From a virus (lineage: Duplodnaviria; Heunggongvirae; Uroviricota; Caudoviricetes): a stretch of 33,549 nucleotides of DNA. Shown one piece after another: positions 1,419 through 21,253 of this stretch; position 1 is the stretch's first letter, and every line of letters starts with the position of its first letter. The notes beneath the pieces were generated by a model. It was given only the letters and a program-made list of their open reading frames with translations, had not been told where the DNA came from and did not search any database. A program made the translations under genes and the position numbers. The DNA lies in IMG/VR virus record IMGVR_UViG_2778261567_000022; one strand, given 5' to 3'.

Positions 1419-1622
1419 ATGAAAATGATTCTTTCAAGAAAAAAAATTGAAATTGAGGTTGTGCAAAGTGGAACGGCTGATAATCCTGAGACGGTTACAA
1501 AAATAAAGGTTTCACGCCCGGAAGATCTTGAAGCGTGTGGTGTTATCGTGGAAAAAATTTGTGCTATTCATGCAAAATCAGTTAATACCACTGCCAGTAA
1601 CGACCACAATAAATACAACTGA
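1419..1622 (+). CDS. hypothetical small protein, 67 aa
   Basis: ORF between the two hok-like units, AT-rich like the upstream gene; stop TGA at 1620-1622 abuts the copy-2 terminator hairpin. Weak RBS, no recognisable motif. Confidence 0.25.
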   Translation: MKMILSRKKIEIEVVQSGTADNPETVTKIKVSRPEDLEACGVIVEKICAIHAKSVNTTASNDHNKYN

Positions 1623-1647
1623 ACAAAAAAGCCCGCATATTGCGGGC
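1622..1647 (-). terminator. rho-independent terminator at 3' end of hok-like transcript, copy 2
   Basis: Hairpin GCCCGC-ATATT-GCGGGC at 1631-1647 preceded on plus strand by AAAAAA (U-run on minus). Loop differs from copy 1 by one base, stem conserved. Confidence 0.5.
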
Positions 1648-2036: not shown

Positions 2037-2039
2037 ACC

Positions 2040-4406: not shown

Positions 4407-4408
4407 GG

Positions 4409-4951: not shown

Positions 4952-5648
4952 GGATCATTTTCCCCAGTTCGGTTAATGAGTCTGCCGCCAGGAGTGCGGC
5001 CACAGTATGTACGGCGGTCGGTGCCGGGATATCCTTCACCATGGCCGCCGCTGCGGCGCGGTGATACCCCCGGTACTGAAATACCCAGGCCTGCGCCTTC
5101 TGTTCTGCCAGTGTTCTGATCCCCTCTTCCAGTCCGGCAAGTGCGCCAGCCCGTCTGCTGATAAAGCGGCTTATCTGGCGGCGAAGCCCTGCGGCATCCG
5201 GGCGTTGTGCTGCCAGCTGCCTGGCCTGTGCTGCACGGGCGGCACTGACTGCGCTGCGTATTGTGGAAACGGAAAGATGCACAGGTGCGGGCAGGGTGTC
5301 GGTGGTGATCGGGATTTGCATTTTGTCAGTGCTCAGACTGGCGGCAGCCTGTGCCATGCGCTGTGCCTGCGTGAATACCGGCACGGGCAGAACGGTGGTC
5401 AGTGCCGCCATTGACTGTATAAAAAGATCGTGGGTGTTTTCGGCAATCATGATAATGGTCACGTCGCCGGATGCACGGCTTCCGGCCATTTTCCCGGCCA
5501 GCCAGTTTATGGCGTTCGGAGGGCTTAAATATACCCCCGATTCTTCATATCGTCCCAGCCCGTAAGTCCACGGTGTGACGGGGATGACGGAACAGCTCAG
5601 CGGGGGCATGTCAGCGCTGACGCTGATTGTTTTTCTTGTCCACGTCAT
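4923..5648 (-). CDS. hypothetical tail-operon protein, 241 aa (start uncertain)
   Basis: ORF immediately downstream of the tail fibre assembly gene; Ala/Arg-rich, helical-looking C-terminal half; function unknown. Confidence 0.3.
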   Translation of the reverse strand: MTWTRKTISVSADMPPLSCSVIPVTPWTYGLGRYEESGVYLSPPNAINWLAGKMAGSRASGDVTIIMIAENTHDLFIQSMAALTTVLPVPVFTQAQRMAQAAASLSTDKMQIPITTDTLPAPVHLSVSTIRSAVSAARAAQARQLAAQRPDAAGLRRQISRFISRRAGALAGLEEGIRTLAEQKAQAWVFQYRGYHRAAAAAMVKDIPAPTAVHTVAALLAADSLTELGKMIHEPDRTARP

Positions 5649-8887: not shown

Positions 8888-10064
8888 TGACCACCTCCAC
8901 TGTCAGGGATTCGAGCCGTGGCACGGCCAGATCGCTGATGATGTCTTCCAGTGAAAACTGAACCGAAGCCACCACCGGGAAGGTCTGATGAATTTCCTTG
9001 CCCAGCGTGGAAAACGAAAAGCGCGAATAGGGCCAGACTTTTTTCACATTAAAGCGGGCATTCTCCCGAAAAGCGCAGCGTATCAGGTCGCTGATATCCT
9101 GTTTCAGCCCTTCCGCGCCGTCCGGTGGCAGGGTGGTTGAGCTTCTGATGTATACGGTGACGTCCAGACGGTGACGCGTCTCCGGCATGGCGAAACACTG
9201 CAAATCATCCCCGTGTCCGTGGTGCCCCTCTTCGTTGATGTAGCGGTTGACTGCTTCAATAAAAGGGGCAGAGGCCTCGCCGCTGTCCAGTAACAGGTAG
9301 GCGTTGGCCGTTCCCGGTCCTCTCGGGGCGTCGTGCTGAAAGTAGATCCGGTCGATGCTCAGGCCCGCCACGCTGGCGATAAGTCCCCGGTAGACGGCGT
9401 CCGTGTGGTAACTGCTCACGAGGTTAAACTGGTTGCGTATTCTGTCGCGCAGTTCGTCGTCGCTTTCCTCATCGGCACCCGGTACGGTCAGCCAGTCTTC
9501 CCGGTTCACCACGGATGCAATGCCGGGAATGGCAACGGGAAGGATACGGAAGTACCCCGGCGCGAGGTTGTGCCCGCTGCCTTCGGTGGTGGCTTCCACG
9601 GGAACGGATGCGCCGCTTTTACCGCTGCTGATAAGCGTTTCCTCCGTGACGGCCATGCTGTATATCACGCCGTTAATTCTGGCGGTCTGGACGATGGTCC
9701 CTTCGGGGATGAGAACATCATCATTTGCTCTGGTTTTGGCAAACCAGATCACGCCACGGGCCTTACTGGCCGGTTTTGGGGTGATGTTGACGTCGTGCGC
9801 ATGAAGCAGAAGAAGTGACCGGTCAGCCGTGGCGACAAACATACCGGGCAGCACAACGTCAACCAGCGCATCACGCAGCCACTGAACGGGTCGTATGACA
9901 ATGGTCAGAATGAGCCGCCAGAAGGGACTCATGGGCGAGGTGTTGGTGATGAGTCCGGTTTTCTGTACATCCTCATGAAAGAGGGTGGCGATCTCTTCTT
10001 CTGTTTCCGGCATACCGCTTTCACGGAATACCTGATTAAAATCAACGTCCGGTTTCCCTTTCAT
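8880..10064 (-). CDS. baseplate J-like protein (P2 gpJ / Mu gp47 family)
   Basis: 394 aa, size and position typical of baseplate wedge J; overlaps neighbours as in translationally coupled tail operons. Confidence 0.65.
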   Translation of the reverse strand: MKGKPDVDFNQVFRESGMPETEEEIATLFHEDVQKTGLITNTSPMSPFWRLILTIVIRPVQWLRDALVDVVLPGMFVATADRSLLLLHAHDVNITPKPASKARGVIWFAKTRANDDVLIPEGTIVQTARINGVIYSMAVTEETLISSGKSGASVPVEATTEGSGHNLAPGYFRILPVAIPGIASVVNREDWLTVPGADEESDDELRDRIRNQFNLVSSYHTDAVYRGLIASVAGLSIDRIYFQHDAPRGPGTANAYLLLDSGEASAPFIEAVNRYINEEGHHGHGDDLQCFAMPETRHRLDVTVYIRSSTTLPPDGAEGLKQDISDLIRCAFRENARFNVKKVWPYSRFSFSTLGKEIHQTFPVVASVQFSLEDIISDLAVPRLESLTVEVVIE

Positions 10065-10413
10065 AGTTCACCCTGGTGTTTATGCGTCCAAAATCCTGTG
10101 TCTCTGCCGTCACATGCAGCCTGCCCGGTGCCTCTTCGTTAATGAACACCGTCCCCGGAACCAGCCGTTCATCATCCTCAACCAGGAGGATAAGCCGGGT
10201 AATGATGTCGCTGCGCAGCGTCGGGCTGCGTTCGCCGATAAGCAGGGCGGCGATCCCGCTTTCGATAATGCTGTGCACCACGTCCTGGCCGATGCTGACC
10301 CGGTTATCACATCGCTGTGGCTCGTTTCCGCTGTTCAGCGTAAAACTGCCGTCAGTGATAAGCAGGTCGATGTAAAGCGATGGCGTGTTCATCCCGCGTA
10401 AAGCTCCGTCCAT
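10042..10413 (-). CDS. small baseplate protein (GP46 / gpW-like)
   Basis: 123-aa ORF directly downstream of the tape measure gene and upstream of J, as in Mu gp46-gp47; weak match to the phage GP46 family from memory. Confidence 0.45.
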   Translation of the reverse strand: MDGALRGMNTPSLYIDLLITDGSFTLNSGNEPQRCDNRVSIGQDVVHSIIESGIAALLIGERSPTLRSDIITRLILLVEDDERLVPGTVFINEEAPGRLHVTAETQDFGRINTRVNYERETGR

Positions 10414-12575
10414 TCATCCAGTTGCCCCGGCGTCATCGGGTTCTGCGTGTTGATTGTCAGATTGCCGAACGTCCGGCTGTTGTCGATACGGGTTGAGGTG
10501 TCCGTGCGTATCTGGTTGCGTATGCCTCCGGGTGGCAGCTCTGCGCTGATGCGGTTGCCTGCCAGTGCCGGGACGGCGGTTTCTGCAATCTGCGGAGGTA
10601 CGGTGCTGCCTGTTGCGCCCCGCGTCATGGTGTTCACCTGCTCCGTGGGCTTCATGTCGATACTGATACCGGGGATTTTGTTCAGCTTTTCCGCAAGCCA
10701 GTTCCACGTCCGGTTAAACGAGTTTTTAATGACGTTCCATAAGTCCCCGAAGACGTTACCGATGATCCCCGCCATTTTCCGGAAGGATTCGACCGGGGCG
10801 GTCGGGTCAAATGCAGCCACCACGTCCTGCCACCCTCTGATGACGATGGCGAAGATGTCGATCAGGGTTCTGATCACGCTGATAACCACCTCCAGCGCGG
10901 GGGATATCAGGCTTACCGCTGCGGCCACCACGCGACCGCATGTTTCCCCGGCACGGGTGACGCTGTTCATCTGTCCCGTGGTCAGCTGTACCGGTGCAAA
11001 CAGATCGGAGAAGGCACTGAACAGGGTTTTTATGCCCTGCCATACCGGGGCCAGCGCCCGGGCAATGTCACCGAACGCGGCAGTCACCGGGCTCATGGCG
11101 TCCAGTGCGCTGGTAAAACCATCAATAAAGCCGCGAATAAAGGCTTTGATGGGCTGCCAGAACTTAATGGCCACCACCACCAGAGCAGCGATGGCGGCGG
11201 CAACCAGGAGGACCGGGGCGCTCATGGTCAGAAACGACACGCCCGCCAGACGCGCGGCAAGACTGGTGGCAATGATGGCACTGCGTACTTTTGTGAGTGC
11301 AAGCGTGTACAGACTCCAGGCTGCCCTGGCGCCCTTTATGATGGCCTTATGGCCTTCCATGATGAAGCTGAACACACCCAGCACGATGTTCGTGACCGCA
11401 CCGGCTGCGCCCAGCGCCAGCATGGTCAGCGTGATGTAACCCAGCCAGCGGGCGATGTTCGGGAACATGTTCAGCCAGCGCACGAACGTCGCGCCGATAT
11501 CGGCAAAACGGCCAGCCAGTGGTGCGAGAATGGGGTAGAGGGCATTACCGATGGCGGCCCGGATGTTGTAGAAGGAGGCCACAAGGCGATCCCACGGGTC
11601 GGTCATGGCTTCAGCCATTTCCGTGGCACGCTTCATGCCGTCATTACGCCCCAGCGCTGATATGCTCCGGTTAAGCATTTCCTGCTGCCCCCAGAGTTTT
11701 TTAATCACGTCCGCGCCACTGCCGAAGGCGTCATCCAGCGCCTGTTGTGCCGCCACGTTACCCTCAATGTTCCTGCCGAACCTCGCCTGCAGACGGTCGA
11801 GGATGTCACCCATGGGTAAAATCCTCCCGGTGACATCGACAAAACTCATCCCCATTTTTTGTGCGGCAGCGGGGGCACTGCGCAGGAATTCCTCATAGAT
11901 GCCCGATGCCTCGGTGCCCATGGTCCGTGACAGGGTGCCCAGTATGGCAAACTGCTCTGCCATGCTGACGCCAAAATCCGCGCCCGCGTTTTTGGTGCCC
12001 TCAATAAGCTCCTGCATGGTGCTCATTTCCACACCGAACTGCTGAACCATCCACGCGGTTTTACCTGCCAGATCTTCAGCAAACCCCACGGCACCCATGG
12101 CAGAAAACTCACTGCGGAAACGGGCACCCATGGCGGCAAGGTAGCCGCTCGCCTCTTCGCTGCTGACGCGGGCAGCCACGGCCAGGGTGCTGGTTGCTGC
12201 CGTCACACGGGGTAAATCCCCGTCGCTCAGTCCGTCCAGTGCGCCGCGAATATGCCATGCGGAACGGATGATCTCCGTGGAAGACTGACCGAATGCGGTC
12301 CCCAGTTTCATGGCCTGCGTGGTGAGGGCGGTCAGCGCCTGCGCCCCGACGCCTTTGGCCTCAAGCTCGCCCAGCGCCTTCTGCATCTCCCACGCCGGAT
12401 CCATCGCGGCGCGGATACCTTCGGCCACGCCCCACAGTCCGGCCACACCCACACCGATACGCGCGAACGCGCCCTGCGAGCGTTCGGCGAATCCCGTCAC
12501 GGATTCCTGAACCTGCCGCAGCGGGCGGGTAAGCTGGTCTGTCAGATTGATAATGAAATCCAGCTGGCTGGCCAT
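10389..12575 (-). CDS. tail tape measure protein, 728 aa
   Basis: Long Ala/Gly-rich protein with a central hydrophobic block (ITLTMLALGAAGAVTNIVLGVFSFI ...), immediately after the frameshifting chaperone gene. Confidence 0.8.
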   Translation of the reverse strand: MASQLDFIINLTDQLTRPLRQVQESVTGFAERSQGAFARIGVGVAGLWGVAEGIRAAMDPAWEMQKALGELEAKGVGAQALTALTTQAMKLGTAFGQSSTEIIRSAWHIRGALDGLSDGDLPRVTAATSTLAVAARVSSEEASGYLAAMGARFRSEFSAMGAVGFAEDLAGKTAWMVQQFGVEMSTMQELIEGTKNAGADFGVSMAEQFAILGTLSRTMGTEASGIYEEFLRSAPAAAQKMGMSFVDVTGRILPMGDILDRLQARFGRNIEGNVAAQQALDDAFGSGADVIKKLWGQQEMLNRSISALGRNDGMKRATEMAEAMTDPWDRLVASFYNIRAAIGNALYPILAPLAGRFADIGATFVRWLNMFPNIARWLGYITLTMLALGAAGAVTNIVLGVFSFIMEGHKAIIKGARAAWSLYTLALTKVRSAIIATSLAARLAGVSFLTMSAPVLLVAAAIAALVVVAIKFWQPIKAFIRGFIDGFTSALDAMSPVTAAFGDIARALAPVWQGIKTLFSAFSDLFAPVQLTTGQMNSVTRAGETCGRVVAAAVSLISPALEVVISVIRTLIDIFAIVIRGWQDVVAAFDPTAPVESFRKMAGIIGNVFGDLWNVIKNSFNRTWNWLAEKLNKIPGISIDMKPTEQVNTMTRGATGSTVPPQIAETAVPALAGNRISAELPPGGIRNQIRTDTSTRIDNSRTFGNLTINTQNPMTPGQLDEWTELYAG

Positions 12576-12578
12576 GTC

Positions 12579-12774
12579 ACCTTCCGTTAAATGCGATCGC
12601 TATACCTTCAGCGGTCTTGTTGGCGCGGGTACGGGCAAAATATTCATCCAGCCAGATGGCACGGGCGATGCTCTCTTCGTCGTCCGGCTCTCCGGGGAGG
12701 TAGTGACGCCGCAATGCCAGATACTGCTCAAGGGGATTGCGGCGGATGCTTTCGACCCGCGCGGTCAGTTTTTT
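12579..12774 (-). other. programmed -1 ribosomal frameshift extension of the tail assembly chaperone (E+E'/G-GT type)
   Basis: Slippery heptamer AAAAAAC (plus strand 12768-12774). The -1 frame stays open for about 65 codons (LKKLTARVESIRRNPLEQYLALRRHYLPGEPDDEESIARAIWLDEYFARTRANKTAEGIAIAFNGR) and stops at the TGA overlapping the tape measure start codon. Confidence 0.6.
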
Positions 12775-13040
12775 AACTCAATCTCCAGTTTCGGGGAGTA
12801 AACCTCGTTAATCTTCTCGACGATCTGCATCTCACAGCCCGGATAACGCGCAATCAGGTCAGCCAGTGCGTCGCGGCTGGCAGGCGTCACGATGCGGTTA
12901 AGATAGGTGCTCATCGGCGCCACCTTGTTGGTCATCGTGATTTCGTTGATGAGGTTGTTAAATGCCGTTTTGTTCGGTTCAAAGCTCAGGGTTACGCCCG
13001 CAACGGACAGGATGATGGTGCCGGTGTTCTTCGTGGTCAT
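12765..13040 (-). CDS. tail assembly chaperone (P2 gpE-like), 91 aa
   Basis: Small ORF just upstream of the tape measure gene; ends in a slippery A-AAA-AAC heptamer; same length as P2 gpE. Confidence 0.65.
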   Translation of the reverse strand: MTTKNTGTIILSVAGVTLSFEPNKTAFNNLINEITMTNKVAPMSTYLNRIVTPASRDALADLIARYPGCEMQIVEKINEVYSPKLEIELKN

Positions 13041-13330
13041 TGCAGTTTCTCCGTGTTTCGTATGGTTTCCACCAGGCTGTTATGCCTGGCGGCGCATTCG
13101 GTGTAGCGGCTCGTGAGGGTTCGCAGTGCCGCATCAAAATCAGCGCCCGTCGGGCCTGCCAGTCTCGGCAGTGTCTTCGGGCATTCCGTCAACTGGTTTT
13201 CCTGCCAGGGTACGCTCAGCGGCTTCAGCACGGGCGTTGAACAGCCGGACGTAATCATCAGTAGCGCACACATTGCGGAATACCGGGCGGACGGTTTCCG
13301 TGTGAATAACGCGTTCAGTGTGAATTTCAT
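13037..13330 (-). CDS. o-spanin (Rz1-like outer membrane lipoprotein)
   Basis: Signal peptide with lipobox ITSGC followed by a short Pro-rich mature region; gene overlaps the 3' part of the i-spanin in a different frame. Confidence 0.6.
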   Translation of the reverse strand: MKFTLNALFTRKPSARYSAMCALLMITSGCSTPVLKPLSVPWQENQLTECPKTLPRLAGPTGADFDAALRTLTSRYTECAARHNSLVETIRNTEKLQ

Positions 13331-13526
13331 TGCCCTTTAACGCCTCCAGCCGTTTTTCCAGTATGCGGGCGGACTGCTGCCCGGCTTCTGTCACCGCCCG
13401 TCGCGTGGCTTCCATGGCTTCCTGTTCGGCAAGCGCCACCCTGGCGTCATGCCAGTCATGGGCCAGCCAGCCCGCCCACATGGCGGCAAAGAGGATCACC
13501 AGGCAGCCCGCCAGCTGTTTCATCAT
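13140..13526 (-). CDS. i-spanin (Rz-like)
   Basis: N-terminal transmembrane helix (LAGCLVILFAAMWAGWL) then charged helical periplasmic domain; o-spanin overlaps it. Confidence 0.6.
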   Translation of the reverse strand: MMKQLAGCLVILFAAMWAGWLAHDWHDARVALAEQEAMEATRRAVTEAGQQSARILEKRLEALKGNEIHTERVIHTETVRPVFRNVCATDDYVRLFNARAEAAERTLAGKPVDGMPEDTAETGRPDGR

Positions 13527-13861
13527 TTCACCCCGTTGTGCTCAAGGCTGAAATGATTGCCGTCTGCCCGGCTGAAGCGTCCGCCCCATGTGCCGCCGAT
13601 GGATTCCCAGTATTCCCCCAGCGGCCTGTAGGCGTCGGTGTCGGCCTGGTATTTGCCGTTAATGAACAGGTTGAAGTCCACCGCGAGGCGCAGCGTGTGA
13701 AGGCTGTTGCGAATGCCTTTTCCGCTTTTCGCATTCAGTGCGGCCTGCTCCGGCGTGCGGTATGCCTCGCCGAAGGTCAGGCGATAGCCGTGCTCCTGTG
13801 CCCAGTGGATGAGATCGGCAATCATGACGGCAAACAGTTGTTGTTTTTCGCTCAGTTTCAT
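13523..13861 (-). CDS. endolysin, peptidase M15 family (L-alanyl-D-glutamate endopeptidase type)
   Basis: 112 aa with Zn-ligand pattern H-x6-D ... H (SLHTLRLAVDF ... DGNHFSLEH) typical of small M15 phage endolysins; sits between methylase and spanins. Confidence 0.6.
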   Translation of the reverse strand: MKLSEKQQLFAVMIADLIHWAQEHGYRLTFGEAYRTPEQAALNAKSGKGIRNSLHTLRLAVDFNLFINGKYQADTDAYRPLGEYWESIGGTWGGRFSRADGNHFSLEHNGVK

Positions 13862-14613
13862 CAGTCACTCCTCTGTTCCGTCCCCGTAAGGCGCGCCTGT
13901 GCCACGCTGAAATAGTGGGCGTTCAGTTCAATACCCGTAAAACGGCAGCCCCGGCGAAGGGCGGCCACGCCCGTGGTGCCGGACCCCATAAACGGATCGA
14001 GGATCAGCCCTCCGGGTTCACACACGCGCACAAGCTCATCCATCAACGATTCCGGTTTACCTGTCGGGTGCTGTTTCTCCTGTGGGCGTGTGTGGTGCGT
14101 GGTGCAGCCGTCGAACGGCCCGGAAGGGGATTTGCCCAGCGCGCCTTTACTGCCCCAGACCACATATTCGCACTGGTGACGAAAATAACCGGTATGCGGT
14201 GTTCTTGAGGCCCGTCCCTTGTTCCATGCCACGATCCCCCGCCAGGTAAAGCCGGCGGCCTGGAATGCGTCCGTCAGCGCGGGCAACTGCCGCCAGTCGG
14301 TGAAGACCAGGGCGTAACCACCGGGTCGTACCGTGCGCCATGCCTGTGTCATCCACAGATGCGTCCAGTATTCCCATGAACGGGCGTCCATGTTCTCGCC
14401 TTCGAAGCCTTCAAAGCGGTGAAGATCTTCATCGTTGATGTATTTGGCGTGGCTGCCCTGGCATGTCCGCCCCGCCTTGTGTGTGGCACCTGAACTGTAT
14501 GGCGGGTCTGTGATGAGCGCGTCCACACTGTTTTCCGGCAGCATCCGCAGAACGTCATGCGCCTGCGCGTGATACAGGCTCAGGGAAGGCGAAATGTAAG
14601 GCTTATGGGTCAT
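13861..14613 (-). CDS. DNA methyltransferase, beta-class (N6-adenine or N4-cytosine), 250 aa
   Basis: Motif IV DPPY (ITDPPYSSG) precedes motif I FxGxG (DPFMGSGTT), the beta-class order; start overlaps the holin stop and stop overlaps the endolysin start. Confidence 0.8.
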   Translation of the reverse strand: MTHKPYISPSLSLYHAQAHDVLRMLPENSVDALITDPPYSSGATHKAGRTCQGSHAKYINDEDLHRFEGFEGENMDARSWEYWTHLWMTQAWRTVRPGGYALVFTDWRQLPALTDAFQAAGFTWRGIVAWNKGRASRTPHTGYFRHQCEYVVWGSKGALGKSPSGPFDGCTTHHTRPQEKQHPTGKPESLMDELVRVCEPGGLILDPFMGSGTTGVAALRRGCRFTGIELNAHYFSVAQARLTGTEQRSD

Positions 14614-14908
14614 TTCTGCGTTCCTTCTGCTTCAGGTAGCGGTCTGCCAGACGGCAAAAGCATTCTTCAATAAAGGCGCTGCCCATAATGCCCAGCGCGC
14701 ACGCCAGACCGACCACAACCAGCTCCGGCATGTCCGGAAATTTAAACAGCGGAATGGCGGCAACCGGTGCCACGGCAGAGCCCATAATCATTCGCCCGAT
14801 AAGCAGACGGGCTGTGATGCGATCGCGGCTCACCATGAGACGCCCCAGCCCGATGGCAGCACCGATGATAATCAGTTTTGCCAGGAGTGAAGTCTGACCG
14901 TCCGGCAT
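14603..14908 (-). CDS. holin
   Basis: 101 aa with hydrophobic segments (LLAKLIIIGAAIGLG; MIMGSAVAPVAAIPL; LVVVGLACALGIMGSAFI) and a charged C-terminus, directly upstream of the lysis genes. Confidence 0.55.
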   Translation of the reverse strand: MPDGQTSLLAKLIIIGAAIGLGRLMVSRDRITARLLIGRMIMGSAVAPVAAIPLFKFPDMPELVVVGLACALGIMGSAFIEECFCRLADRYLKQKERRNDP

Positions 14909-14912
14909 GGCA

Positions 14913-15404
14913 TCACCCCTTCAGATCGCGGGTGTCACGGGCTGACAGGTAGGGCACGCCGTCAATGCTGATAAAGTCCGGGCTTGTGACCATGAACTTG
15001 ATTTTTTTCGTGGTCTTTCCGGCTTCACCTGCGCTGATGTTCACCACGTCCGACAACATGGGGACGCAGCCGAATACCTCGATTTTTTCCTCCTCGCTGC
15101 CGTTGTTGGCATAAAAGAGAAAATCCTTTTCAGGAATGGCACGCCACGACCCCGCAGAGCGGGCCACGGCACCAAACTTTTTAAAGTTCTGCGCGTCGAC
15201 TTCCACCTCCACATCGGCAGAAACGGAACCACGGGTGTAGCCGTTCGGCACGCCGCGCGTCTGTGCCACGGCGCTGTTGTCGGTGATGGTGACGGTGGCG
15301 CTTTCCACGTGGATCATGATCCCGTCGTAGTTGATATCAAACGCGCCGCCGCTGATACGTTCATTTCCGGCCATGTCAGATCTCCAGTGCTGTGTCGAGT
15401 TCAA
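14913..15404 (-). CDS. tail tube protein (putative)
   Basis: 163-aa ORF immediately downstream of the sheath gene, the conserved sheath-tube order in contractile tails; size similar to P2 FII. Confidence 0.5.
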   Translation of the reverse strand: MNSTQHWRSDMAGNERISGGAFDINYDGIMIHVESATVTITDNSAVAQTRGVPNGYTRGSVSADVEVEVDAQNFKKFGAVARSAGSWRAIPEKDFLFYANNGSEEEKIEVFGCVPMLSDVVNISAGEAGKTTKKIKFMVTSPDFISIDGVPYLSARDTRDLKG

Positions 15405-16521
15405 TACTTACGCCAATGGCTTTTGCGCTCTCGTAGGGGCGTACCACAATGTAAATCTGCACGTGTGTACTGCTGGTCCAGACGATGGTGATATCCCCGT
15501 CCTGTGGCGGTTTAACCTCGCCGGGGAACGGTACGCCGTTAATCTCCGTGGCGAGCGCCATTTCACGCAGCGTGCGGCTGAAATATGTCTGGCTGGCGGC
15601 AATGCTGCCCGGTGTGCTGTTGAGTGCGCGATCCGCAAGGCGGGCAATGGCGCGCAGACGTACACGGCGGGAGACCTTATCCACCACGCGCACGTTTTCG
15701 ATGACCTGGTAATCGCCCCCCTCCACATCAAGGGTGCGTCCGTCTGACCAGTAGAGCCCGTCGAAATCGTGATACCACATGGGCACGCTGAAGCGTTTGC
15801 CTTCCAGCGAGCGTAGCGTGGCCAGCTCAAGGGGCTGTTTCTTGCCGTCCTGCGGGATCTCATCGTTACCCATCGCCACCAGAGCACCGGTTGCCACGCG
15901 TGCCGGGCTGTCCGCAACGGTGACAGAAGGATTACAGAGACGGCCCGCCAGTACGCCGGGCTCATTTCCCCATAAGCGGGGAACCACCATCACGCCAGGT
16001 GCTGCCACGCCGTCCTGTATGGCACTGATGCGGGTGACGTATGCCGCCCATGCCTCATCCCTGCCCGGTCCGGCCACGCACAGCATGAACCAGACAAAAC
16101 GGCCATAAGCGGACTGAAGCAGGGCGCGGGTTTCGGTGGCGCGGTTAACGGCATCTTTAGCCGTGATGTCAATGGCAATCACCACGCCTTCGGCAGAAGC
16201 AATGGTCTGCGCTTTTTTCACCGCGTCCACCCATGCGGCGTTAGCGTCGCCGCCCTCCGGTGTCGGGGGTTTGGGTTCAGACAGAACGTGAACATAGGCA
16301 AACCAGTTCTGGCCACCGTTGGCGATTGCGGCGGTAAGCGTGGATTTAAGCAGGCTTTCATCCGGTCCCAGCACGTCGTCCAGGTCGGTCTCAGGGGAGA
16401 CGGAAAGGGTGTTACCTGTGTTCTTTTTGCCATAGCCCACAAAAAGCAGCGTGCGCTCCACTTCACGGGTGGCACCGTTGAAACGGTTCTGATGGCTTAC
16501 GGTTACATTCGGCCAGCTCAC
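15376..16521 (-). CDS. tail sheath protein (putative)
   Basis: 381-aa ORF downstream of the tail completion genes and upstream of the tube; size similar to P2 FI. Confidence 0.5.
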   Translation of the reverse strand: MSWPNVTVSHQNRFNGATREVERTLLFVGYGKKNTGNTLSVSPETDLDDVLGPDESLLKSTLTAAIANGGQNWFAYVHVLSEPKPPTPEGGDANAAWVDAVKKAQTIASAEGVVIAIDITAKDAVNRATETRALLQSAYGRFVWFMLCVAGPGRDEAWAAYVTRISAIQDGVAAPGVMVVPRLWGNEPGVLAGRLCNPSVTVADSPARVATGALVAMGNDEIPQDGKKQPLELATLRSLEGKRFSVPMWYHDFDGLYWSDGRTLDVEGGDYQVIENVRVVDKVSRRVRLRAIARLADRALNSTPGSIAASQTYFSRTLREMALATEINGVPFPGEVKPPQDGDITIVWTSSTHVQIYIVVRPYESAKAIGVSIELDTALEI

Positions 16522-16532
16522 GGTGTGACTCC

Positions 16533-17243
16533 TTATCTGATATCCTGTGCGTCAACGTCCAGGCCGTAGCCCATTGCGTTCATCTGGCGTGCCAGGATGT
16601 GTGAAAACTCTTCGTTTGTTACCCCCAGAAAGACGCGCGACGGAAGGGTAATGGTCCATGTCCTGGCCTTCTGCTGACGTGGTCCGGCGATAATCTGATC
16701 CTCCATAACGGTGATCAGCAACCCGGCCTGCGCCCGCGAAAGCGTTAACAGGTATTTCATGGATGCTTTCCGCCAGCGCCCCTTCTGACGTACCTTAAAG
16801 CCCAGCTCCCGCAGTCGTTTTGCCTGTCGGCGGGTGGCGGTCTGCCCGCTCTGGTCCTGACCGCTGAAGCTGTCAGCACTGACCCGGATTTCTGCGCCGT
16901 TGTGGTGAACCCAGCCCACGGCACCGGCACTGATGCGGCTCCTGCCACTGGTGTGATTGCCGTTACGGAAATAAACCTTTACGGCATCCTGTCCGGGCAT
17001 CTCACGGACCGCCAGAAGACGCGGCAGCTTTCTGAACATTTTCCCCTTGCCGCGTTTCCGGGGTGCCCATGCTGTGCCGTCCGGCGCGGTCTGATCGCGC
17101 TGATGGCGTCTGGCTGCGGCGATAATGCCGTGCCGGGCAATACGCCATAACAGGCGACGGCGTTTTTTCGGGGGCAGATCCAGCGACTGAAGCATCGCCT
17201 GCGCTTCTGCCAGCTGCTGCGGGTTCAGCTGGCCGCTTATCAT
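16533..17243 (-). CDS. virion morphogenesis / tail completion protein (P2 gpS / Mu G-like) with C-terminal extension
   Basis: Segment APDGTAWAPRKRGKGKMFRKL fits the PDG-x-WAP motif region of the phage virion morphogenesis family; follows the R-like gene as in P2. Confidence 0.5.
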   Translation of the reverse strand: MISGQLNPQQLAEAQAMLQSLDLPPKKRRRLLWRIARHGIIAAARRHQRDQTAPDGTAWAPRKRGKGKMFRKLPRLLAVREMPGQDAVKVYFRNGNHTSGRSRISAGAVGWVHHNGAEIRVSADSFSGQDQSGQTATRRQAKRLRELGFKVRQKGRWRKASMKYLLTLSRAQAGLLITVMEDQIIAGPRQQKARTWTITLPSRVFLGVTNEEFSHILARQMNAMGYGLDVDAQDIR

Positions 17244-17713
17244 TCGCGGCTCCTGCTGACAAACAGATCCATGGTTTCCGCCGTCCAGATTTCAGGGTTA
17301 ACCAGTGTCCAGCGTTTCCCCCTGTACGGAACGGGGCCGTCCTCCTGCACCCGGATGATCAGCGGGTCAGCCAGTCCCACCGTGATATCGAGAAGGCACG
17401 AGTCCTCATCGTTAAACTGCGGGTCGACGTTCACATCCTCCGGGCGGAATTCCTCCCTCAGCGGGTCCGCGTGCTCTTCCAGCCAGGCCATGACCAGCGC
17501 GTAAACCAGCCCCGGTGAGTATTTGCGGAACGGGAAGTTATCCCATGCAATCACGCCGGTGTACGTCATCACGCCCATGCGGATCTGGTCGTTACCCAGT
17601 GCCTTCTGACTTCGGATAAGTTGCGCGTCTTCCTGACTGCTCATGAAGAACTGCATGGCGTCAGACGGCAGATTTTCGGTAATGAAGGCGGTCAGGCTTT
17701 CCAGCTGGTTCAT
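17240..17713 (-). CDS. tail completion protein (P2 gpR-like)
   Basis: 157 aa; VYALVMAWLEEHADP ... DEDSCLLDITVGLADPLII resembles recalled P2 gpR; follows the head completion gene. Confidence 0.55.
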   Translation of the reverse strand: MNQLESLTAFITENLPSDAMQFFMSSQEDAQLIRSQKALGNDQIRMGVMTYTGVIAWDNFPFRKYSPGLVYALVMAWLEEHADPLREEFRPEDVNVDPQFNDEDSCLLDITVGLADPLIIRVQEDGPVPYRGKRWTLVNPEIWTAETMDLFVSRSRE

Positions 17714-18183
17714 ATGATGTGCACTCCCGCGCGTCTGTGCCCCAGCATGTTACGCATGACCAGCGAGGCTTCAGCCAGTAAGGTGGCGCGTGTGTCCTCG
17801 CTTTCCTGCCCCGGATAGGTTTCACGGCGACCAATGGTGGCGAACTCGCCCATAAGATCGGCCTTGGCACGGGCATAAACGGCCTTTTTGTACTGTGCGA
17901 CCAGCTGGGTTTCATCGCCCAGCCTGGCCCCCGGTACGTCTGCGGCGCGTTCATGCCCCTGCGCCTTCCAGTGCACCACAACCGGCGCCAGCGTGGTGTT
18001 CACCTCGGCCACTGCGGCAAGCAGCGCCATGGCCGCCGTGTCGTCGGGTAAATCAGCCGGAAGCGTGCGTGACCCCTGAAGCTCAGCCAGATCAAGGTCC
18101 GGCCAGAACGGCTCGCCGTTTGTCACCGTCTGCGGTGTGGATTTCAGCGGTTTACCGCTGACGCTGAAGCTCGGTTCGCTCAT
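17710..18183 (-). CDS. L: head completion/stabilisation protein (P2 gpL-like)
   Basis: Last gene of the O-N-M-L cluster; start moved to ATG at 18183 (MSEPSF...) which has a GAGG RBS; the ORF-track start at 18234 is also possible. Confidence 0.55.
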   Translation of the reverse strand: MSEPSFSVSGKPLKSTPQTVTNGEPFWPDLDLAELQGSRTLPADLPDDTAAMALLAAVAEVNTTLAPVVVHWKAQGHERAADVPGARLGDETQLVAQYKKAVYARAKADLMGEFATIGRRETYPGQESEDTRATLLAEASLVMRNMLGHRRAGVHII

Positions 18184-18290
18184 GACGTGCCTCATATGAA
18201 TAAAAAGGCGGGCTGTCCGGGATTCCACGGCCATACAGTTTCCGTCACTGATGCCTCCTCCCGCGCCCGCCCGGCCCTGCGGGTAGTCGT

Positions 18291-18989
18291 TTACGCTGCA
18301 TTAAGGGCGCTGATGCGTGCCCTGATGCGCGCCCTGATACTTTTTACGCCAGCGGTACGGCTCAGTGCTGCCGCCTGTGCCAGGTATGCGTCTGCCTTTT
18401 CCAGTACGGCAGTATCATTAATCGCGGTGGCTCTCGGTTTGCCCGCCTCGTCGCGCAGAAGATACAGCCCGGCAAATCTGAACCACTTCGCGCGGATTTC
18501 CTCATGCAGCCGCCACGAGGTGGTGACGTTCCTGAAGGTGCGCGAAAAATACGGTTCTATGCTGTGTCCGGCCTCGCTGTTGTCGGTGGCCCACTGCAGC
18601 ACCGTGTCTGCCACGAAGGCGGGCAGGGTGCTGCGGAAGTTGTCCGGTGTGGCCTGGCCTTCACTGATGGCAATGTCTGCCCAGTCAAGGGCGCGACTCA
18701 GGTCGCCCGTGTCGAACAGCCAGATGATGCAGTACACCAGTACCGGGCAGGCGTGGCGCTTTCCGTCAGTGATATAGCGCTCCGCGACGGGCAGCCAGCG
18801 CGGCAGGAGAATGTCGCGCTTGAACGCCAGCCGCTCTTCGCGGACCGGAAGACTGCGCAGCCGTGCCACATCGCGATCAAGCTCCGCGCGTAACAGGTGG
18901 AAGCTGACCGGGGAGGCCGTCAGCGCCTCCCGGCGTTCGAGTGCCTCCTGTGTGCGGATTTTCGCCCGGTGCCGCTGGCAGGGTGTCAT
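18291..18989 (-). CDS. M: terminase small (endonuclease) subunit (P2 gpM-like)
   Basis: 232-aa basic protein between the major capsid and head completion genes; P2 synteny O-N-M-L. Confidence 0.6.
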   Translation of the reverse strand: MTPCQRHRAKIRTQEALERREALTASPVSFHLLRAELDRDVARLRSLPVREERLAFKRDILLPRWLPVAERYITDGKRHACPVLVYCIIWLFDTGDLSRALDWADIAISEGQATPDNFRSTLPAFVADTVLQWATDNSEAGHSIEPYFSRTFRNVTTSWRLHEEIRAKWFRFAGLYLLRDEAGKPRATAINDTAVLEKADAYLAQAAALSRTAGVKSIRARIRARISALNAA

Positions 18990-19006
18990 TGCGCCGCCCT
19001 CCGTCC

Positions 19007-20026
19007 TCAGCCGCCGACGCCTGGTACGGCTTCTGCGCCCTTGATGGTCAGTTTGTCGTAGGCCGCGTAAATTTCGTCGTGCTCCACGGCGTAACCTTCC
19101 ATGCGCAGATAGTTGTTTTCAAAACGCTTGCGATCGTCGTTCCACTCCGCACGGCGCTGACGGGTGCCGCGCTGCGTGTAGATGTGAAGGTTTGCCAGCG
19201 TGGTGACAATCAGGCGCCCTTCCGGCATGAACGGCGGGGTGTATGCTGTCAGCCCGGCGATCTGGCGACCGATAAGCTGTGCGGCCACTTTTTCCGTGGG
19301 GGCGTCGATGGCGTTAAGCAGCGTCACCTTGTCCTGTGCCACAAGGTCGGGCGCAACCAGTACCACCAGATCCGGATGACCGCGATATGACTCATCAATG
19401 AGGGTATGCACGAGGTCTGCCACGGCTGCATCCAGCCCGATAAAGTCGCCACCCTTGCCCAGCGTCGGGCCAGCCTCCACGATCTGTTTTGCGCTGCGGC
19501 CTTTGACGATGGCATGCCAGCCGGTGTTGACGTCCTCGCCGTTTTTGTTGGTTACCGGGTCGGTATCTTCGGCCACGCTGGTACCGTTAAAGGCAATGCG
19601 CAGGATATCCAGCGCGATCTGTCTGTTAACAAAATTCTGAATGCGGTTAAAGAACTCGTTTTCACTTCCTGCGTTCGCCCAGGTGACCAGTGTGGTGTAC
19701 AGGAGGTGGGCGCCGGAATCGGTTTCAGCCAGCTTGTATTCATTCCCGGTAACACCCAGCGGAAGGGTGAAGCGGGCATTTTTTTTACGTCCGGTATGGA
19801 GGCCCGGAACGCCGGTGGTAACCACCTGGCCTGTCACCTGTTCAACATCCAGCACGTTCGGCAGTTTTGATAAAAACTCGTCGGAGTGCATGATGGCGTC
19901 ACGCAGCGCGGTCTCCTTCGGGTCAGACAGCGCAAAATAGCGTGTGACGTCGTCAACCCCGTTTGCCGCGCCCAGCCCGGCAGCGTACTTACGAAGCAGT
20001 GATTCGGTTTTCTGGTTCAGTTGCAT
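19007..20026 (-). CDS. N: major capsid protein (P2 gpN-like)
   Basis: 339 aa, downstream of the scaffold gene; size and position as P2 gpN. Confidence 0.7.
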   Translation of the reverse strand: MQLNQKTESLLRKYAAGLGAANGVDDVTRYFALSDPKETALRDAIMHSDEFLSKLPNVLDVEQVTGQVVTTGVPGLHTGRKKNARFTLPLGVTGNEYKLAETDSGAHLLYTTLVTWANAGSENEFFNRIQNFVNRQIALDILRIAFNGTSVAEDTDPVTNKNGEDVNTGWHAIVKGRSAKQIVEAGPTLGKGGDFIGLDAAVADLVHTLIDESYRGHPDLVVLVAPDLVAQDKVTLLNAIDAPTEKVAAQLIGRQIAGLTAYTPPFMPEGRLIVTTLANLHIYTQRGTRQRRAEWNDDRKRFENNYLRMEGYAVEHDEIYAAYDKLTIKGAEAVPGVGG

Positions 20027-20037
20027 GTTGCGTGTCC

Positions 20038-21087
20038 TTAAACAAAGTCAAACGGTTTTTCGCTTTCTGCCGGTGCGCCAGCCGGGCGCGGCGTGATGCC
20101 GGTTGCTGACAGCTTCGTGGTCAGGTCGTTAAGTTTTTCGGCAATGGCTTTGATTTCTTCTTTGTCGGTGTCGTCCCGGCGACGGGCGGCAAAGCGGCGG
20201 TAACGTTCGCCTTTTTCCGGTGTGATGGCACTGAACGCTTTAATCGCGTCTTCCAGCTTCGCTTTCGCGGCGCTGAAGGCTTCAGCCTTAACCTCATCTT
20301 CCGGGGCGGCTTCCACCTCTTCTGCCAGCTCTGCCACCTCTGCGGCGGCATCGGCGATTTCGGCGGCGATTTCCGCGACTTCGGCTTTTGCTTCTTCCGG
20401 TGTGTCTGCTGTGCCCTCGCCAGCGGCAGCGGCGCTGCCGCCTTCCACCAGGGTGATCAGCTTTTCAAGCAGTGCTTTAATTTCGTCCATTTTTGCGTCC
20501 TCGCCTGTATCAGGCTTACTGGTATCGGTGTTGTCGGTCTGTCCTGCGCTGAACAGGCGTTTCAGGAATGATTCAGGTTTACGGGGGGCAGGGGAGGTGT
20601 CCGGTGACAGGCTGCCCAGCGTGAACGTCTGGCAGTTCGCCCTCTGTGCCGTGTATTCCTCGTTGTTCAGGGTGAAGCGGATTTTTTCCGTCCCCAGACT
20701 GGCGGGGATATCCGTCACCGCCACGCCCAGGAGATAGTCGCGTCCGCTCCGGGCGAAGTTCTCCACTATCTCGGCGGATGTGAACAGCTTCTGCCCCAGT
20801 CTGTTGGCTTCAATCAGGTACTGGTTAGGGACCAGCCGTGCGTAGAGGCGGGTTTTACCGTCCTTGCCGGTTTCCGCTTTCAGTGAGTCCACTTCACCCA
20901 GATTACTGGTGTACTGGCGGTGTCCGATTTCTTCCTCATGCCAGGGCCACAGCAGCGCCGTGTAAGTGTTGCGGGAATAGGTTTCAGCGGCATCAGTCAG
21001 CCACTGCGGATCAATTTCGCGGCCGTCAACGGTCGGTCCTGATGTGGCGATACATATCCAGTCGGTCATCAACGTTGGCTGCGGCAT
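20038..21087 (-). CDS. O: capsid scaffolding protein (P2 gpO-like)
   Basis: Start set at ATG 21087 (MPQPTLMTDWICIATSGPTVDGREI...) with AAAGAGG RBS; acidic Ala/Glu-rich helical C-terminal half typical of scaffolds; divergent from P/Q. Confidence 0.7.
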   Translation of the reverse strand: MPQPTLMTDWICIATSGPTVDGREIDPQWLTDAAETYSRNTYTALLWPWHEEEIGHRQYTSNLGEVDSLKAETGKDGKTRLYARLVPNQYLIEANRLGQKLFTSAEIVENFARSGRDYLLGVAVTDIPASLGTEKIRFTLNNEEYTAQRANCQTFTLGSLSPDTSPAPRKPESFLKRLFSAGQTDNTDTSKPDTGEDAKMDEIKALLEKLITLVEGGSAAAAGEGTADTPEEAKAEVAEIAAEIADAAAEVAELAEEVEAAPEDEVKAEAFSAAKAKLEDAIKAFSAITPEKGERYRRFAARRRDDTDKEEIKAIAEKLNDLTTKLSATGITPRPAGAPAESEKPFDFV

Positions 21088-21253
21088 CGTGGCCTCTTTT
21101 ACGTGAAAATCTGAAGAACTCCGGTGAGTGTCGGGATTTTTACGGCAGGGGGCTACTGGATTAATTCGGTTGCATTCGGATAACACGGAATAGCCGAACA
21201 CAGCCGAAATTTTCTGCCTGAATGCGGGCCGGATGCGCCGCCATAATGGGCGC
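21088..21253. promoter_or_regulatory. divergent intergenic region between O and P operons (expected Ogr-dependent late promoters)
   Basis: Inference from P2 biology only; no consensus element verified. Confidence 0.3.

What the first reader, a model, noticed from the sequence alone, without database searches (positions are those of the whole stretch)
13037..14908. Lysis cassette sits between tail tube and tail chaperone genes and carries a translationally coupled DNA methyltransferase
In P2 the lysis genes lie between head completion and tail completion genes; here they are wedged inside the tail module. A beta-class DPPY methyltransferase has start and stop overlapping the holin and endolysin ORFs, implying late co-expression. 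This looks like a mobile lysis/anti-restriction cassette; the methylation target is unknown.
Basis: partly seen in the sequence, partly recalled or inferred. Interest (0 to 1): 0.5.

Follow-up and report, generated by a model that had tools for sequence, protein, structure and literature searches.

The report
Prophage methyltransferase inside HP1-type lysis cassette
An E. coli prophage of the HP1/P2 family carries a stand-alone DNA methyltransferase gene between its holin and endolysin genes, a real but largely ordinary arrangement: the position of the lysis genes is normal for this phage branch, and a published Aeromonas phage has the same holin-methyltransferase-endolysin order.

Summary
On the minus strand the genes run sheath, tube, holin (14603-14908), beta-class DPPY methyltransferase (13861-14613), M15 endolysin (13523-13861), i-/o-spanin, tail assembly chaperone, tape measure. 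The methyltransferase overlaps the holin by 11 nt and the endolysin by 1 nt (TGATG).

Lysis genes between tube and chaperone are the standard layout of HP1-like Peduoviridae (HP1, K139, ESSI-2, SI7, about 75 IMG/VR relatives). They are not a cassette that moved into the tail module.

Only the methyltransferase ORF is mobile:
- It is an ORF-exact insertion relative to Salmonella phage SI7.
- It is present in all 12 complete E. coli genomes that carry this prophage.
- It is deleted, leaving a 52-nt remnant, in one 99%-identical relative.

Aeromonas phage phiO18P (published 2008) already shows hol-met-lys, with an unrelated holin and a distant methyltransferase. A Salmonella Mu-like prophage has a 60%-identical methyltransferase between a different holin and lysozyme. 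The closest homologues (64-73%) are instead coupled to a Com translational activator, as Mu mom is.

The most likely function is late, lysogen-silent N6-adenine methylation of progeny DNA against restriction. The target sequence remains unknown. Interest is modest.

The parts
15376..16521 (-). tail sheath gene (context, upstream in the late operon)
   Evidence: PF10758 DUF2586, E 5e-129; PHROG 907 tail sheath
14913..15374 (-). tail tube gene (ATG at 15374; the mechanical ORF list extends it to a TTG at 15404)
   Evidence: PF10772 Phage_HP1_Orf24, E 3e-51. RefSeq annotates a 153-aa product in near-identical prophages
14603..14908 (-). holin
   Evidence: PF04550 Phage_holin_3_2 and PHROG 175. 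Colinear with the SI7 holin, including its C-terminal tail
14603..14613 (-). 11-nt overlap of the holin 3' end and the methyltransferase start (AATGACCCATAA). The ATG occupies the position that the endolysin ATG has in SI7
   Evidence: sequence; alignment with SI7
13861..14613 (-). orphan beta-class amino-DNA methyltransferase, 250 aa
   Evidence: PF01555, 97.9 bits; PHROG 67; PADLOC MTase_II. AlphaFold model with pLDDT 88 matches CcrM, M.BceJIV and the rotifer N4-cytosine methyltransferase (N4CMT) at TM 0.70-0.75
14497..14508 (-). catalytic motif IV, DPPY (residues 36-39)
   Evidence: sequence; invariant in a 34-member family alignment
13972..13998 (-). AdoMet-binding motif I, DPFMGSGTT (residues 206-214)
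   Evidence: sequence; invariant D206, P207, F208, G210, S211
13859..13863 (-). TGATG junction: the methyltransferase stop and endolysin start share one base, with a GGAG Shine-Dalgarno sequence 7 nt upstream
   Evidence: sequence
13523..13861 (-). endolysin (M15 metallopeptidase)
   Evidence: PF13539, E 3e-10; PHROG 1768/465 endolysin
13140..13526 (-). i-spanin (Rz-like)
   Evidence: PHROG 1152 Rz-like spanin, E 1e-30
13037..13330 (-). o-spanin (Rz1/LysC-like lipoprotein). It overlaps the i-spanin 3' end. The probable start is the ATG at 13273, giving MCALLMITSGC
   Evidence: PHROG 2425/456. PF23793 LysC scores 19.5 bits, below its cut-off. The lipobox is read from the translation
12765..13040 (-). 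tail assembly chaperone. Its ATG overlaps the o-spanin stop (ATGA)
   Evidence: PF10963 Phage_TAC_10, E 9e-31
10389..12575 (-). tail tape measure protein (context)
   Evidence: PF10145; PHROG 28

Best explanation
The window is an E. coli prophage of the HP1-like branch of Peduoviridae. In this branch the lysis genes (holin, endolysin, i-/o-spanin) normally sit between the tail tube gene and the tail assembly chaperone, inside one long late transcription unit.

A single 750-nt ORF for a stand-alone beta-class amino-methyltransferase has been inserted exactly between holin and endolysin. The enzyme is most likely an N6-adenine methyltransferase. Its ATG takes over the start site inside the holin 3' end that the endolysin uses in relatives. 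The endolysin is re-joined through a TGATG overlap with its own Shine-Dalgarno sequence.

The gene has no promoter, no Com activator and no restriction partner. It should therefore be silent in the lysogen and made only with the late proteins, by translation that follows on from the holin or starts at its own Shine-Dalgarno sequence.

Inferred steps:
- The enzyme methylates replicated phage DNA before packaging, so that progeny escape restriction in the next host.
- Confinement to the late operon spares the lysogen from foreign methylation.

Shown here: gene identities, overlaps, insertion boundaries, conservation, loss in one relative, and recurrence of the arrangement in other phages.

Not shown: enzymatic activity, target sequence, timing of expression, and any anti-restriction effect.
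For: - The fold is supported.
- The overlaps and Shine-Dalgarno sequences are read.
- Alignment with Salmonella phage SI7 (72% nt) shows homology through the holin, including its tail. A methyltransferase-sized gap follows, and homology resumes exactly at the endolysin ATG.
- The lysis slot is conserved in HP1, K139, ESSI-2, SI7 and phiO18P, and in all but one of the roughly 75 IMG/VR loci with enough downstream sequence.
- All 12 complete E. coli genomes with this cassette keep the methyltransferase. All 10 copies examined carry an intact ORF, and the catalytic motifs were checked and found intact in the most divergent allele, L207.
- GC and GC3 of the gene (0.60/0.69) match its neighbours.
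- No promoter-like or terminator-like site above chance lies in 10000-21500.
- No Com homologue is present in the window.
- No restriction enzyme gene was found: the genes flanking the methyltransferase are the holin and the endolysin, and no nuclease-type partner was recognised among the other window proteins scanned.
- An Ogr/Delta-type late activator is annotated in a near-identical prophage.
- Three parallels exist: phiO18P hol-met-lys, a Salmonella Mu-like prophage with holin-methyltransferase-lysozyme and ATGA overlaps, and a D12-class methyltransferase between endolysin and Rz in L179.
- The nearest homologues of all three methyltransferase types are Com-coupled, as Mu mom is. Com-coupled modification genes are late and harmful to the host (PMC3299994).
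Against: - No experimental or methylome data were available, and the target sequence cannot be inferred. The best solved relatives are only 20-25% identical and include both N6-adenine and N4-cytosine enzymes.
- RNA folding gives no significant structure masking the methyltransferase start (z = -0.7). Obligatory coupling is therefore not demonstrated, and the gene may initiate independently.
- A 99%-identical prophage has lost the gene (L127), so it is dispensable.
- One E. coli allele (L207) carries 12 amino-acid changes among 21 nucleotide differences. This hints at weak constraint in at least one lineage.
- I could not locate the late promoters. The P2-type TGT-N12-ACA motif occurs only at chance level.
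Confidence: 0.7

Rival explanations
1. Mom-like broad protection. The enzyme is a low-specificity or very frequent-site adenine methyltransferase that is harmful to the host. Embedding it in the lysis cassette is an alternative to Com control for restricting it to doomed cells.
For: - The closest homologues (64-73% identity) are Com-coupled at prophage ends.
- The same duality holds for phiO18P met, whose 62%-identical relative in phiARM81ld follows a Com-like gene and precedes the holin.
- It also holds for the L179 methyltransferase, which is 50% identical to the Com-coupled gene at the mom position of phage SuMu.
- Com-coupled methyltransferases of the Hia5 family are non-specific, and mom expression is harmful (PMC3299994). 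M.EcoGII is non-specific and toxic (PMC5778455).
- The segment between motif VIII and motif X is only about 25 residues.
Against: - Hia5 and Hin1523 are Dam-like alpha-class enzymes, not this family (PMC3299994; motif order).
- M.EcoGII is 349 aa and was not among the close hits.
- The family is strongly conserved over its whole length, which equally fits a defined shared site.
- In a P2-type late operon the gene is not expressed later than capsid or tail genes, so the position gives lysogen silence rather than extra-late timing.
Confidence: 0.2
2. Lysogenic-conversion moron. The methyltransferase is expressed from the prophage and methylates the host chromosome, acting as an epigenetic regulator or protecting the host against a co-resident nuclease.
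For: Orphan prophage methyltransferases with host effects are known in general. The gene is widespread in E. coli assemblies.
Against: - There is no intergenic space and no promoter-like site above chance.
- Both ends overlap essential late lysis genes, whose expression in a lysogen would be lethal.
- Close homologues are under Com control, which is a late-expression device.
Confidence: 0.07
3. The enzyme is an N4-cytosine rather than an N6-adenine methyltransferase.
For: PF01555 covers both activities. The top Foldseek hit is the rotifer N4-cytosine methyltransferase, and M.PvuII is also matched.
Against: - Motif IV is DPPY, which is typical of N6-adenine enzymes (established knowledge).
- The best sequence hits are CcrM, M.BceJIV and M1.HpyAVI/DpnA-type adenine enzymes.
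- Sources name relatives as adenine-specific, although these names are untested.
Confidence: 0.1
4. One reading: the whole lysis-plus-methyltransferase block is a mobile cassette that was inserted into the tail module.
For: The slot is mosaic across the branch. It holds three holin families and at least three Pfam-typed endolysin families (M15 peptidase, GH24 lysozyme, CHAP), plus others with no family match. Lysis genes are therefore exchanged there over long time scales.
Against: - The slot itself is occupied by lysis genes in HP1, K139, ESSI-2, SI7 and phiO18P, and in all but one of the roughly 75 IMG/VR loci with enough downstream sequence.
- The holin, endolysin, spanins and flanks are colinear with SI7, and only the methyltransferase is extra.
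Confidence: 0.03

Closest known systems
Aeromonas phage phiO18P (NC_009542; Beilstein & Dreiseikelmann 2008), genes hol-met-lys
   Same: An HP1-like Peduoviridae phage with the order sheath, tube, (DksA-like gene), holin, PF01555 methyltransferase, endolysin, spanins, chaperone.
   Different: - The methyltransferase is 358 aa and resembles the window enzyme only at the motifs.
- The holin belongs to another family (Phage_holin_3_1), and the endolysin is also different.
- There is a 21-nt gap instead of an overlap at the holin junction.
- It is therefore an independent acquisition.
Haemophilus phage HP1 late region (orf23, orf24, hol, lys, orf25, orf26, orf27)
   Same: The lysis genes lie between tail tube and tape measure. 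The window's tube protein (HP1_Orf24) and its HP1_ORF34 protein belong to families named after HP1.
   Different: HP1 has no methyltransferase in the cassette. Its holin and endolysin belong to other families.
Salmonella phage SI7 / Irrigatiovirus (NC_049460)
   Same: The nearest sequenced phage, at 72% nt identity. The holin, M15 endolysin, spanins, chaperone and tape measure are colinear.
   Different: It lacks the methyltransferase. The endolysin ATG lies inside the holin 3' end, where the methyltransferase ATG lies in the window.
Com-coupled beta-class methyltransferases of P2/HP1-like prophages (E. coli phage Chuche, Yersinia kristensenii and Salmonella prophages)
   Same: The same methyltransferase family at 64-73% identity, carried as temperate-phage cargo.
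   Different: They lie at the prophage end, downstream of hok/gef and a Zn_ribbon_Com gene whose 3' end overlaps the methyltransferase start. The window has hok/gef copies at that end but no Com and no second methyltransferase.
Mu com-mom and the Com-coupled Hia5/Hin1523 methyltransferases (PMC3299994)
   Same: A DNA-modification gene that protects phage DNA from restriction and is kept strictly late by post-transcriptional linkage to an upstream small gene.
   Different: Mom is an acyltransferase-fold enzyme. Hia5 and Hin1523 are Dam-like alpha-class enzymes. Control there is by the Com RNA-binding activator, not by overlap with a holin gene.
Salmonella Mu-like prophage, holin-methyltransferase-lysozyme (P0011; L041-L043, L046)
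   Same: A 60%-identical, 250-aa methyltransferase between holin and endolysin, with overlapping stop and start codons on both sides.
   Different: The backbone is Mu-like (Gam, GemA, Mor, Mu portal). The holin is P21 S-like and the endolysin is a GH24 lysozyme.
CcrM, M.BceJIV, M1.HpyAVI, M.MboIIA, M.RsrI (solved beta-class enzymes)
   Same: The fold and motif order.
   Different: Identity is only 19-25%, with no shared target-recognition segment, so their specificities (GANTC, GTWWAC, GAGG, GAAGA, GAATTC) cannot be transferred.

Membership tests
Beta-class amino-DNA methyltransferases (Pfam PF01555 N6_N4_Mtase) | Profile match above the curated threshold | tested here: met
   97.9 bits against a cut-off of 26.7, covering residues 30-239
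Beta-class amino-DNA methyltransferases (Pfam PF01555 N6_N4_Mtase) | Circular permutation with catalytic motif IV (D/S-PP-Y/F) N-terminal to AdoMet motif I (FxGxG) | tested here: met
   DPPY at residues 36-39 and FMGSG at residues 208-212. Both are invariant in the family alignment
Beta-class amino-DNA methyltransferases (Pfam PF01555 N6_N4_Mtase) | Rossmann-type methyltransferase fold shared with solved members | tested here: met
   Model with pLDDT 88 and pTM 0.89. Foldseek E 1e-16 and TM 0.70-0.75 to CcrM, M.BceJIV and the rotifer N4-cytosine methyltransferase
Beta-class amino-DNA methyltransferases (Pfam PF01555 N6_N4_Mtase) | AdoMet-dependent methyl transfer to DNA, and the identity of the modified base and site | not testable with these tools
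   Requires enzymology or methylation-aware sequencing
HP1-like branch of Peduoviridae | P2-type head and packaging genes together with an HP1-type tail tube and baseplate proteins | tested here: met
   Phage_cap_P2, Phage_GPO_N, Phage_term_smal, Phage_GPL and P2_Phage_GpR in identical loci. Phage_HP1_Orf24 and HP1_ORF34
HP1-like branch of Peduoviridae | Lysis genes located between the tail tube gene and the chaperone or tape measure genes | tested here: met
   The window compared with HP1, K139, ESSI-2, SI7 and phiO18P and with IMG/VR loci
Canonical Gram-negative lysis cassette (holin, endolysin, two-component spanin) | Holin, endolysin and i-spanin recognised by family profiles | tested here: met
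   PF04550 and PHROG 175; PF13539 and PHROG 1768; PHROG 1152
Canonical Gram-negative lysis cassette (holin, endolysin, two-component spanin) | o-spanin lipoprotein overlapping or embedded in the i-spanin gene | tested here: inconclusive
   The ORF 13037-13330 overlaps the i-spanin 3' end and has a lipobox-like LMITSGC. PHROG 2425/456 hits were found, but Pfam LysC scores 19.5 bits against a cut-off of 27
Translationally coupled gene pair | Stop of the upstream ORF overlapping or abutting the start of the downstream ORF | tested here: met
   An 11-nt overlap with the holin and a 1-nt TGATG overlap with the endolysin
Translationally coupled gene pair | Downstream translation depends on upstream translation | not testable with these tools
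   No significant RNA structure masks the start (z = -0.74). Reporter fusions or a holin nonsense mutant are needed
Com-controlled modification module (Mu com-mom type) | A Zn-ribbon Com gene immediately upstream of, and overlapping, the modification gene | tested here: not met
   The upstream gene is the holin. tblastn with five Com proteins finds nothing in the window (best E 0.06). Homologues at 64-73% identity do have Com
Type II restriction-modification system | A cognate restriction endonuclease gene next to the methyltransferase | tested here: not met
   The flanking genes are the holin and the endolysin. No nuclease-type partner was recognised by Pfam or PADLOC among the other window proteins scanned
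Hia5/Hin1523 non-specific adenine methyltransferases | Dam-related alpha-class (D12, PF02086) sequence with motif I before DPPY | tested here: not met
   There is no PF02086 hit and the motif order is the reverse. The family description is in PMC3299994
M.EcoGII-type non-specific beta-class methyltransferases | Close sequence relationship to M.EcoGII (349 aa) | not tested
Only its length and class are known from PMC5778455

The most novel reading that the evidence does not exclude
Embedding in a lysis cassette and coupling to a Com activator may be two interchangeable, repeatedly evolved ways for temperate phages to keep anti-restriction adenine methyltransferases silent in lysogens and active only in cells committed to lysis.

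Three unrelated methyltransferase lineages each occur in both contexts: the window's family, the phiO18P/phiARM81ld family, and the Hia5-like D12 family. On this reading the window's enzyme would be a host-harmful methyltransferase with broad or very frequent target sites, a functional analogue of Mom, and not an ordinary site-specific orphan.
Probability: 0.2. Interest if true: 0.5.

Novelty: new member of a known kind. Interest (0 to 1): 0.25.

Why it matters
For annotation, it corrects a false impression. The position of the lysis genes is normal for HP1-like phages, and the only extra element is a methyltransferase ORF.

For phage biology, the locus offers a compact natural system to test three things:
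- how a cargo gene can be inserted between holin and endolysin without disturbing lysis;
- whether translation following on from a holin can replace Com control;
- what this widespread but uncharacterised methyltransferase family recognises.

The system consists of the wild type, a natural deletion variant and Com-coupled homologues. If the family proves to have broad specificity, it could also be useful as a methylation reagent, as Hia5 and M.EcoGII are.

Tried and rejected
- **Target specificity.**
  - Sequence search of the PDB, NCBIfam and a structure search with a confident model gave only class-level matches at 19-25% identity. No site can be inferred.
  - Literature searches for the protein accession and for the Bordetella phage BPP-1 methyltransferase Bpm found nothing.
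- **Relationship to the non-specific enzymes.** Hia5 and Hin1523 are alpha-class and so were rejected as family members. M.EcoGII could not be compared by sequence.
- **RNA structure at the junctions.** Structures that might enforce coupling are not different from shuffled sequences.
- **Late promoter.** The sigma-70 and terminator scan and the P2 Ogr-box pattern TGT-N12-ACA are both at chance level, so I did not map the transcription start.
- **Com remnant.** The holin C-terminal tail is homologous to the SI7 holin tail, not to Com, so it is not a recombination footprint. tblastn finds no Com in the window.
- **Second methyltransferase copy at the hok/gef end.** None was found. Relocation within the genome from a Com-coupled site remains speculation.
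- **Species-representative genomes.** They held no close relative (56% identity at most). The contexts of homologues near 50% identity are heterogeneous: invertase/sheath, Mu portal/F, primase and terminase.
- **Literature on a methyltransferase inside a lysis cassette.** I found no explicit description.
Full report
**Observation**

All relevant genes are on the minus strand and tightly packed:
- sheath, 15376-16521
- tube, 14913-15374
- holin, 14603-14908
- methyltransferase, 13861-14613
- endolysin, 13523-13861
- i-spanin, 13140-13526
- o-spanin, 13037-13330 (probable start at 13273)
- tail assembly chaperone, 12765-13040
- a small DUF6890 ORF, 12577-12714
- tape measure, 10389-12575

Pfam and PHROG profiles identify each of them. 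The methyltransferase scores 97.9 bits on PF01555. It has DPPY at residues 36-39 and DPFMGSGTT at residues 206-214, which is the beta-class order.

The sequence shows both junctions. The methyltransferase ATG lies inside the last 11 nt of the holin ORF (AATGACCCATAA), preceded by AAGGAA. Its TGA shares a base with the endolysin ATG (TGATG), preceded by GGAG. The finding's coordinates and description are therefore correct.

**Origin**

The exact methyltransferase protein is listed in 809 blocks of public assemblies. The whole cassette is found at 98-99.7% identity in 12 of 5,426 complete E. coli genomes, always with the methyltransferase annotated as intact.

In strain 2013C-3033 the element is a roughly 31-kb prophage between serS and dmsA. 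It carries a P2-type capsid, scaffold, terminase and portal, a gene A-type replication protein, an Ogr/Delta-like zinc finger, Cox, a repressor and an integrase.

Besides the flanking holin and endolysin, 14 other window proteins were scanned against Pfam and/or PADLOC. None was recognised as a restriction enzyme or defence partner, so the methyltransferase is an orphan.

**Position of the lysis genes**

The relevant comparison is HP1.

- In HP1 the annotated order is orf23 (sheath), orf24 (tube), hol, lys, Rz-like orf25, orf26, orf27 (tape measure).
- K139, ESSI-2, SI7 and phiO18P have the same layout.
- I fetched 80 IMG/VR loci anchored on the tube protein. About 75 had enough downstream DNA, and all but one (L172) carry holin and endolysin or spanin genes between tube and chaperone.

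The placement is thus a conserved trait of this branch and not a transposed cassette. The content of the slot is mosaic. It holds three holin families and at least three Pfam-typed endolysin families (M15 peptidase, GH24 lysozyme, CHAP), plus others with no family match. The slot itself is fixed.

**What is extra**

The alignment with the nearest phage, Salmonella phage SI7 (72% nt), runs through the tube gene and the whole holin, including its C-terminal tail. It then opens a gap that corresponds to the methyltransferase ORF, and it resumes exactly at the endolysin ATG.

In SI7 the endolysin ATG lies inside the holin 3' end (…AATGAAACTGAGTGA). In the window the same AATGA now starts the methyltransferase. 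A second ATGA at the methyltransferase stop restores the endolysin start. The insertion is therefore ORF-exact and preserves the stop-start architecture.

GC and GC3 of the methyltransferase (0.60/0.69) match the neighbouring genes. The 73%-identical homologue in phage Chuche has 0.51/0.48.

One IMG/VR prophage (L127) is about 99% identical in the flanks but lacks the gene. It keeps the first 52 nt of the ORF, and its endolysin has its own AGGAG Shine-Dalgarno sequence. The methyltransferase was therefore gained in this lineage, is dispensable, and can be lost.

**Precedents and parallels**

1. Aeromonas phage phiO18P, published in 2008, is annotated tube, DksA-like gene, hol, met, lys. Its met is a 358-aa PF01555 enzyme that resembles the window protein only at the motifs. 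Its holin belongs to another family. A frameshifted copy occurs in L173, while sister Aeromonas prophages lack it.
2. A Salmonella Mu-like prophage carries a 60%-identical, 250-aa methyltransferase between a P21 S-like holin and a GH24 lysozyme, with ATGA overlaps on both sides.
3. L179, an HP1-like low-GC phage, has a D12-class (alpha, PF02086) methyltransferase between the endolysin and Rz/Rz1.

In the representative loci I inspected, methyltransferases were the only non-lysis genes in the slot apart from a DksA-like zinc-finger gene.

**The Com connection**

The closest homologues of the window enzyme follow a Zn_ribbon_Com gene at the prophage end, usually after a hok/gef gene. They are E. 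coli phage Chuche (73%), a Yersinia kristensenii prophage (67%) and a Salmonella prophage (64%).

The other two methyltransferase types show the same pattern.
- phiO18P met is 62% identical to phiARM81ld p56. That gene follows a Com-like gene and directly precedes the holin, Rz and Rz1.
- The L179 enzyme is 50% identical to the Com-coupled gene at the mom position of phage SuMu. This is the Hia5/Hin1523 family, shown to be nearly non-specific (PMC3299994).

The window contains two hok/gef copies at its left end but no Com and no second methyltransferase. Three methyltransferase lineages therefore alternate between Com control and lysis-cassette embedding.

More distant relatives (about 50% identity) lie in many late or early contexts: invertase/sheath in P2-likes, Mu portal/F, primase and terminase.

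**Mechanism**

What is shown is limited. The gene is an orphan beta-class methyltransferase, within a gap-free run of late genes, with no internal promoter-like or terminator-like site above chance. Its stop and start codons overlap the neighbouring genes.

What is inferred:
- The gene is transcribed only from the late promoters after induction.
- It is translated by ribosomes coming off the holin or binding its own Shine-Dalgarno sequence.
- It methylates progeny DNA before packaging, which gives protection from restriction in new hosts.
- Silence in the lysogen avoids methylation of the host chromosome. This matters because foreign m6A patterns can be targeted by methylation-dependent nucleases such as Mrr (established knowledge), and because Com-controlled modification genes are known to be harmful (PMC3299994, PMC5778455).

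RNA folding gives no evidence for a structure that would make coupling obligatory.

**Specificity**

The family is highly conserved, with 55% mean column identity over 34 members. The segment between motif VIII (QCEYVVWGS) and motif X (HPTGKP) is short, about 25 residues.

The AlphaFold model is confident (pLDDT 88). However, the best solved relatives are only 19-25% identical and have unrelated specificities: the rotifer N4-cytosine methyltransferase, CcrM, M.BceJIV, M1.HpyAVI, M.MboIIA, M.PvuII and M.RsrI.

DPPY and the adenine-specific best sequence hits favour N6-adenine. Neither the modified base nor the site can be assigned.

**Verdict**

The methyltransferase class, the overlaps and late co-expression hold. 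The idea of an unusual, mobile lysis cassette wedged into the tail module does not.
- This is a new member of a known kind: a phage orphan methyltransferase in a late operon, with a published structural precedent in phiO18P.
- The modestly new element is the recurrent alternation between Com coupling and lysis-cassette embedding in three methyltransferase lineages. I did not find it described in the papers searched.

Noticed in passing
L127 5762-5835 (IMGVR_UViG_2579778804_000007); corresponds to window 13861-14613: A prophage about 99% identical to the window has lost the methyltransferase. It keeps the first 52 nt of the ORF, followed by GAGATACCCC and the endolysin ATG. The remnant ORF reads out of frame into the endolysin gene.
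   Followed up: partly
window 900-2040 (hok/gef-like ORFs at 1018-1155 and 1741-1878, minus strand): A tandem duplication of a unit of about 720 bp (about 89-90% identical copies), each copy encoding a Hok/Gef-type toxin, lies at the tail-fibre end of the prophage. Related prophages (Chuche, Yersinia) have hok followed by com and the methyltransferase at this end. The window has neither com nor a second methyltransferase there.
   Followed up: partly
window 1-900: The leftmost 900 nt or so do not match the serS-side flank of the otherwise near-identical prophage in strain 2013C-3033. The window's element therefore has a different left junction or extra cargo. GC is only 39%.
   Followed up: no
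L172 5456-6056 (IMGVR_UViG_2833053935_000003): An HP1-like phage in which only a holin-like gene lies between tube and chaperone (334 nt). The endolysin and spanins must be elsewhere or absent.
   Followed up: no
L179 6293-7135 (IMGVR_UViG_2835140930_000008): A D12-class (Dam/Hia5-like) methyltransferase of 280 aa lies between the endolysin and Rz/Rz1 of an HP1-type lysis cassette. It is 50% identical to the Com-coupled gene at the mom position of Haemophilus phage SuMu.
   Followed up: partly
L209 1847-4409 (Aeromonas phage phiARM81ld, KT898133): In this linear plasmid-prophage a Com-like gene and its methyltransferase (62% identical to phiO18P met) sit directly upstream of the holin, a hypothetical gene, Rz and Rz1. 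This links Com-methyltransferase modules physically to a lysis cassette.
   Followed up: no
L207 1362-2114 (E. coli Z1323MEC0001, NZ_CP148318): This methyltransferase allele differs from the window at 21 nt and 12 amino acids, while the adjacent holin is identical. The motifs are intact. This suggests a recombinant allele or relaxed constraint.
   Followed up: partly
window 2733-5648: Three ORFs lie after the tail-fibre assembly gene: 241 aa with no family, 180 aa matching HP1_ORF34 (baseplate complex), and 557 aa with a weak Phage_base_V match. They are conserved at the same place in the Yersinia relative, and they give no PADLOC hit.
   Followed up: partly
window 12577-12714: A small DUF6890 ORF of 45 aa lies between the chaperone and the tape measure. 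It is possibly the frameshift extension of the chaperone (gpE/E'-like), which I did not examine.
   Followed up: no
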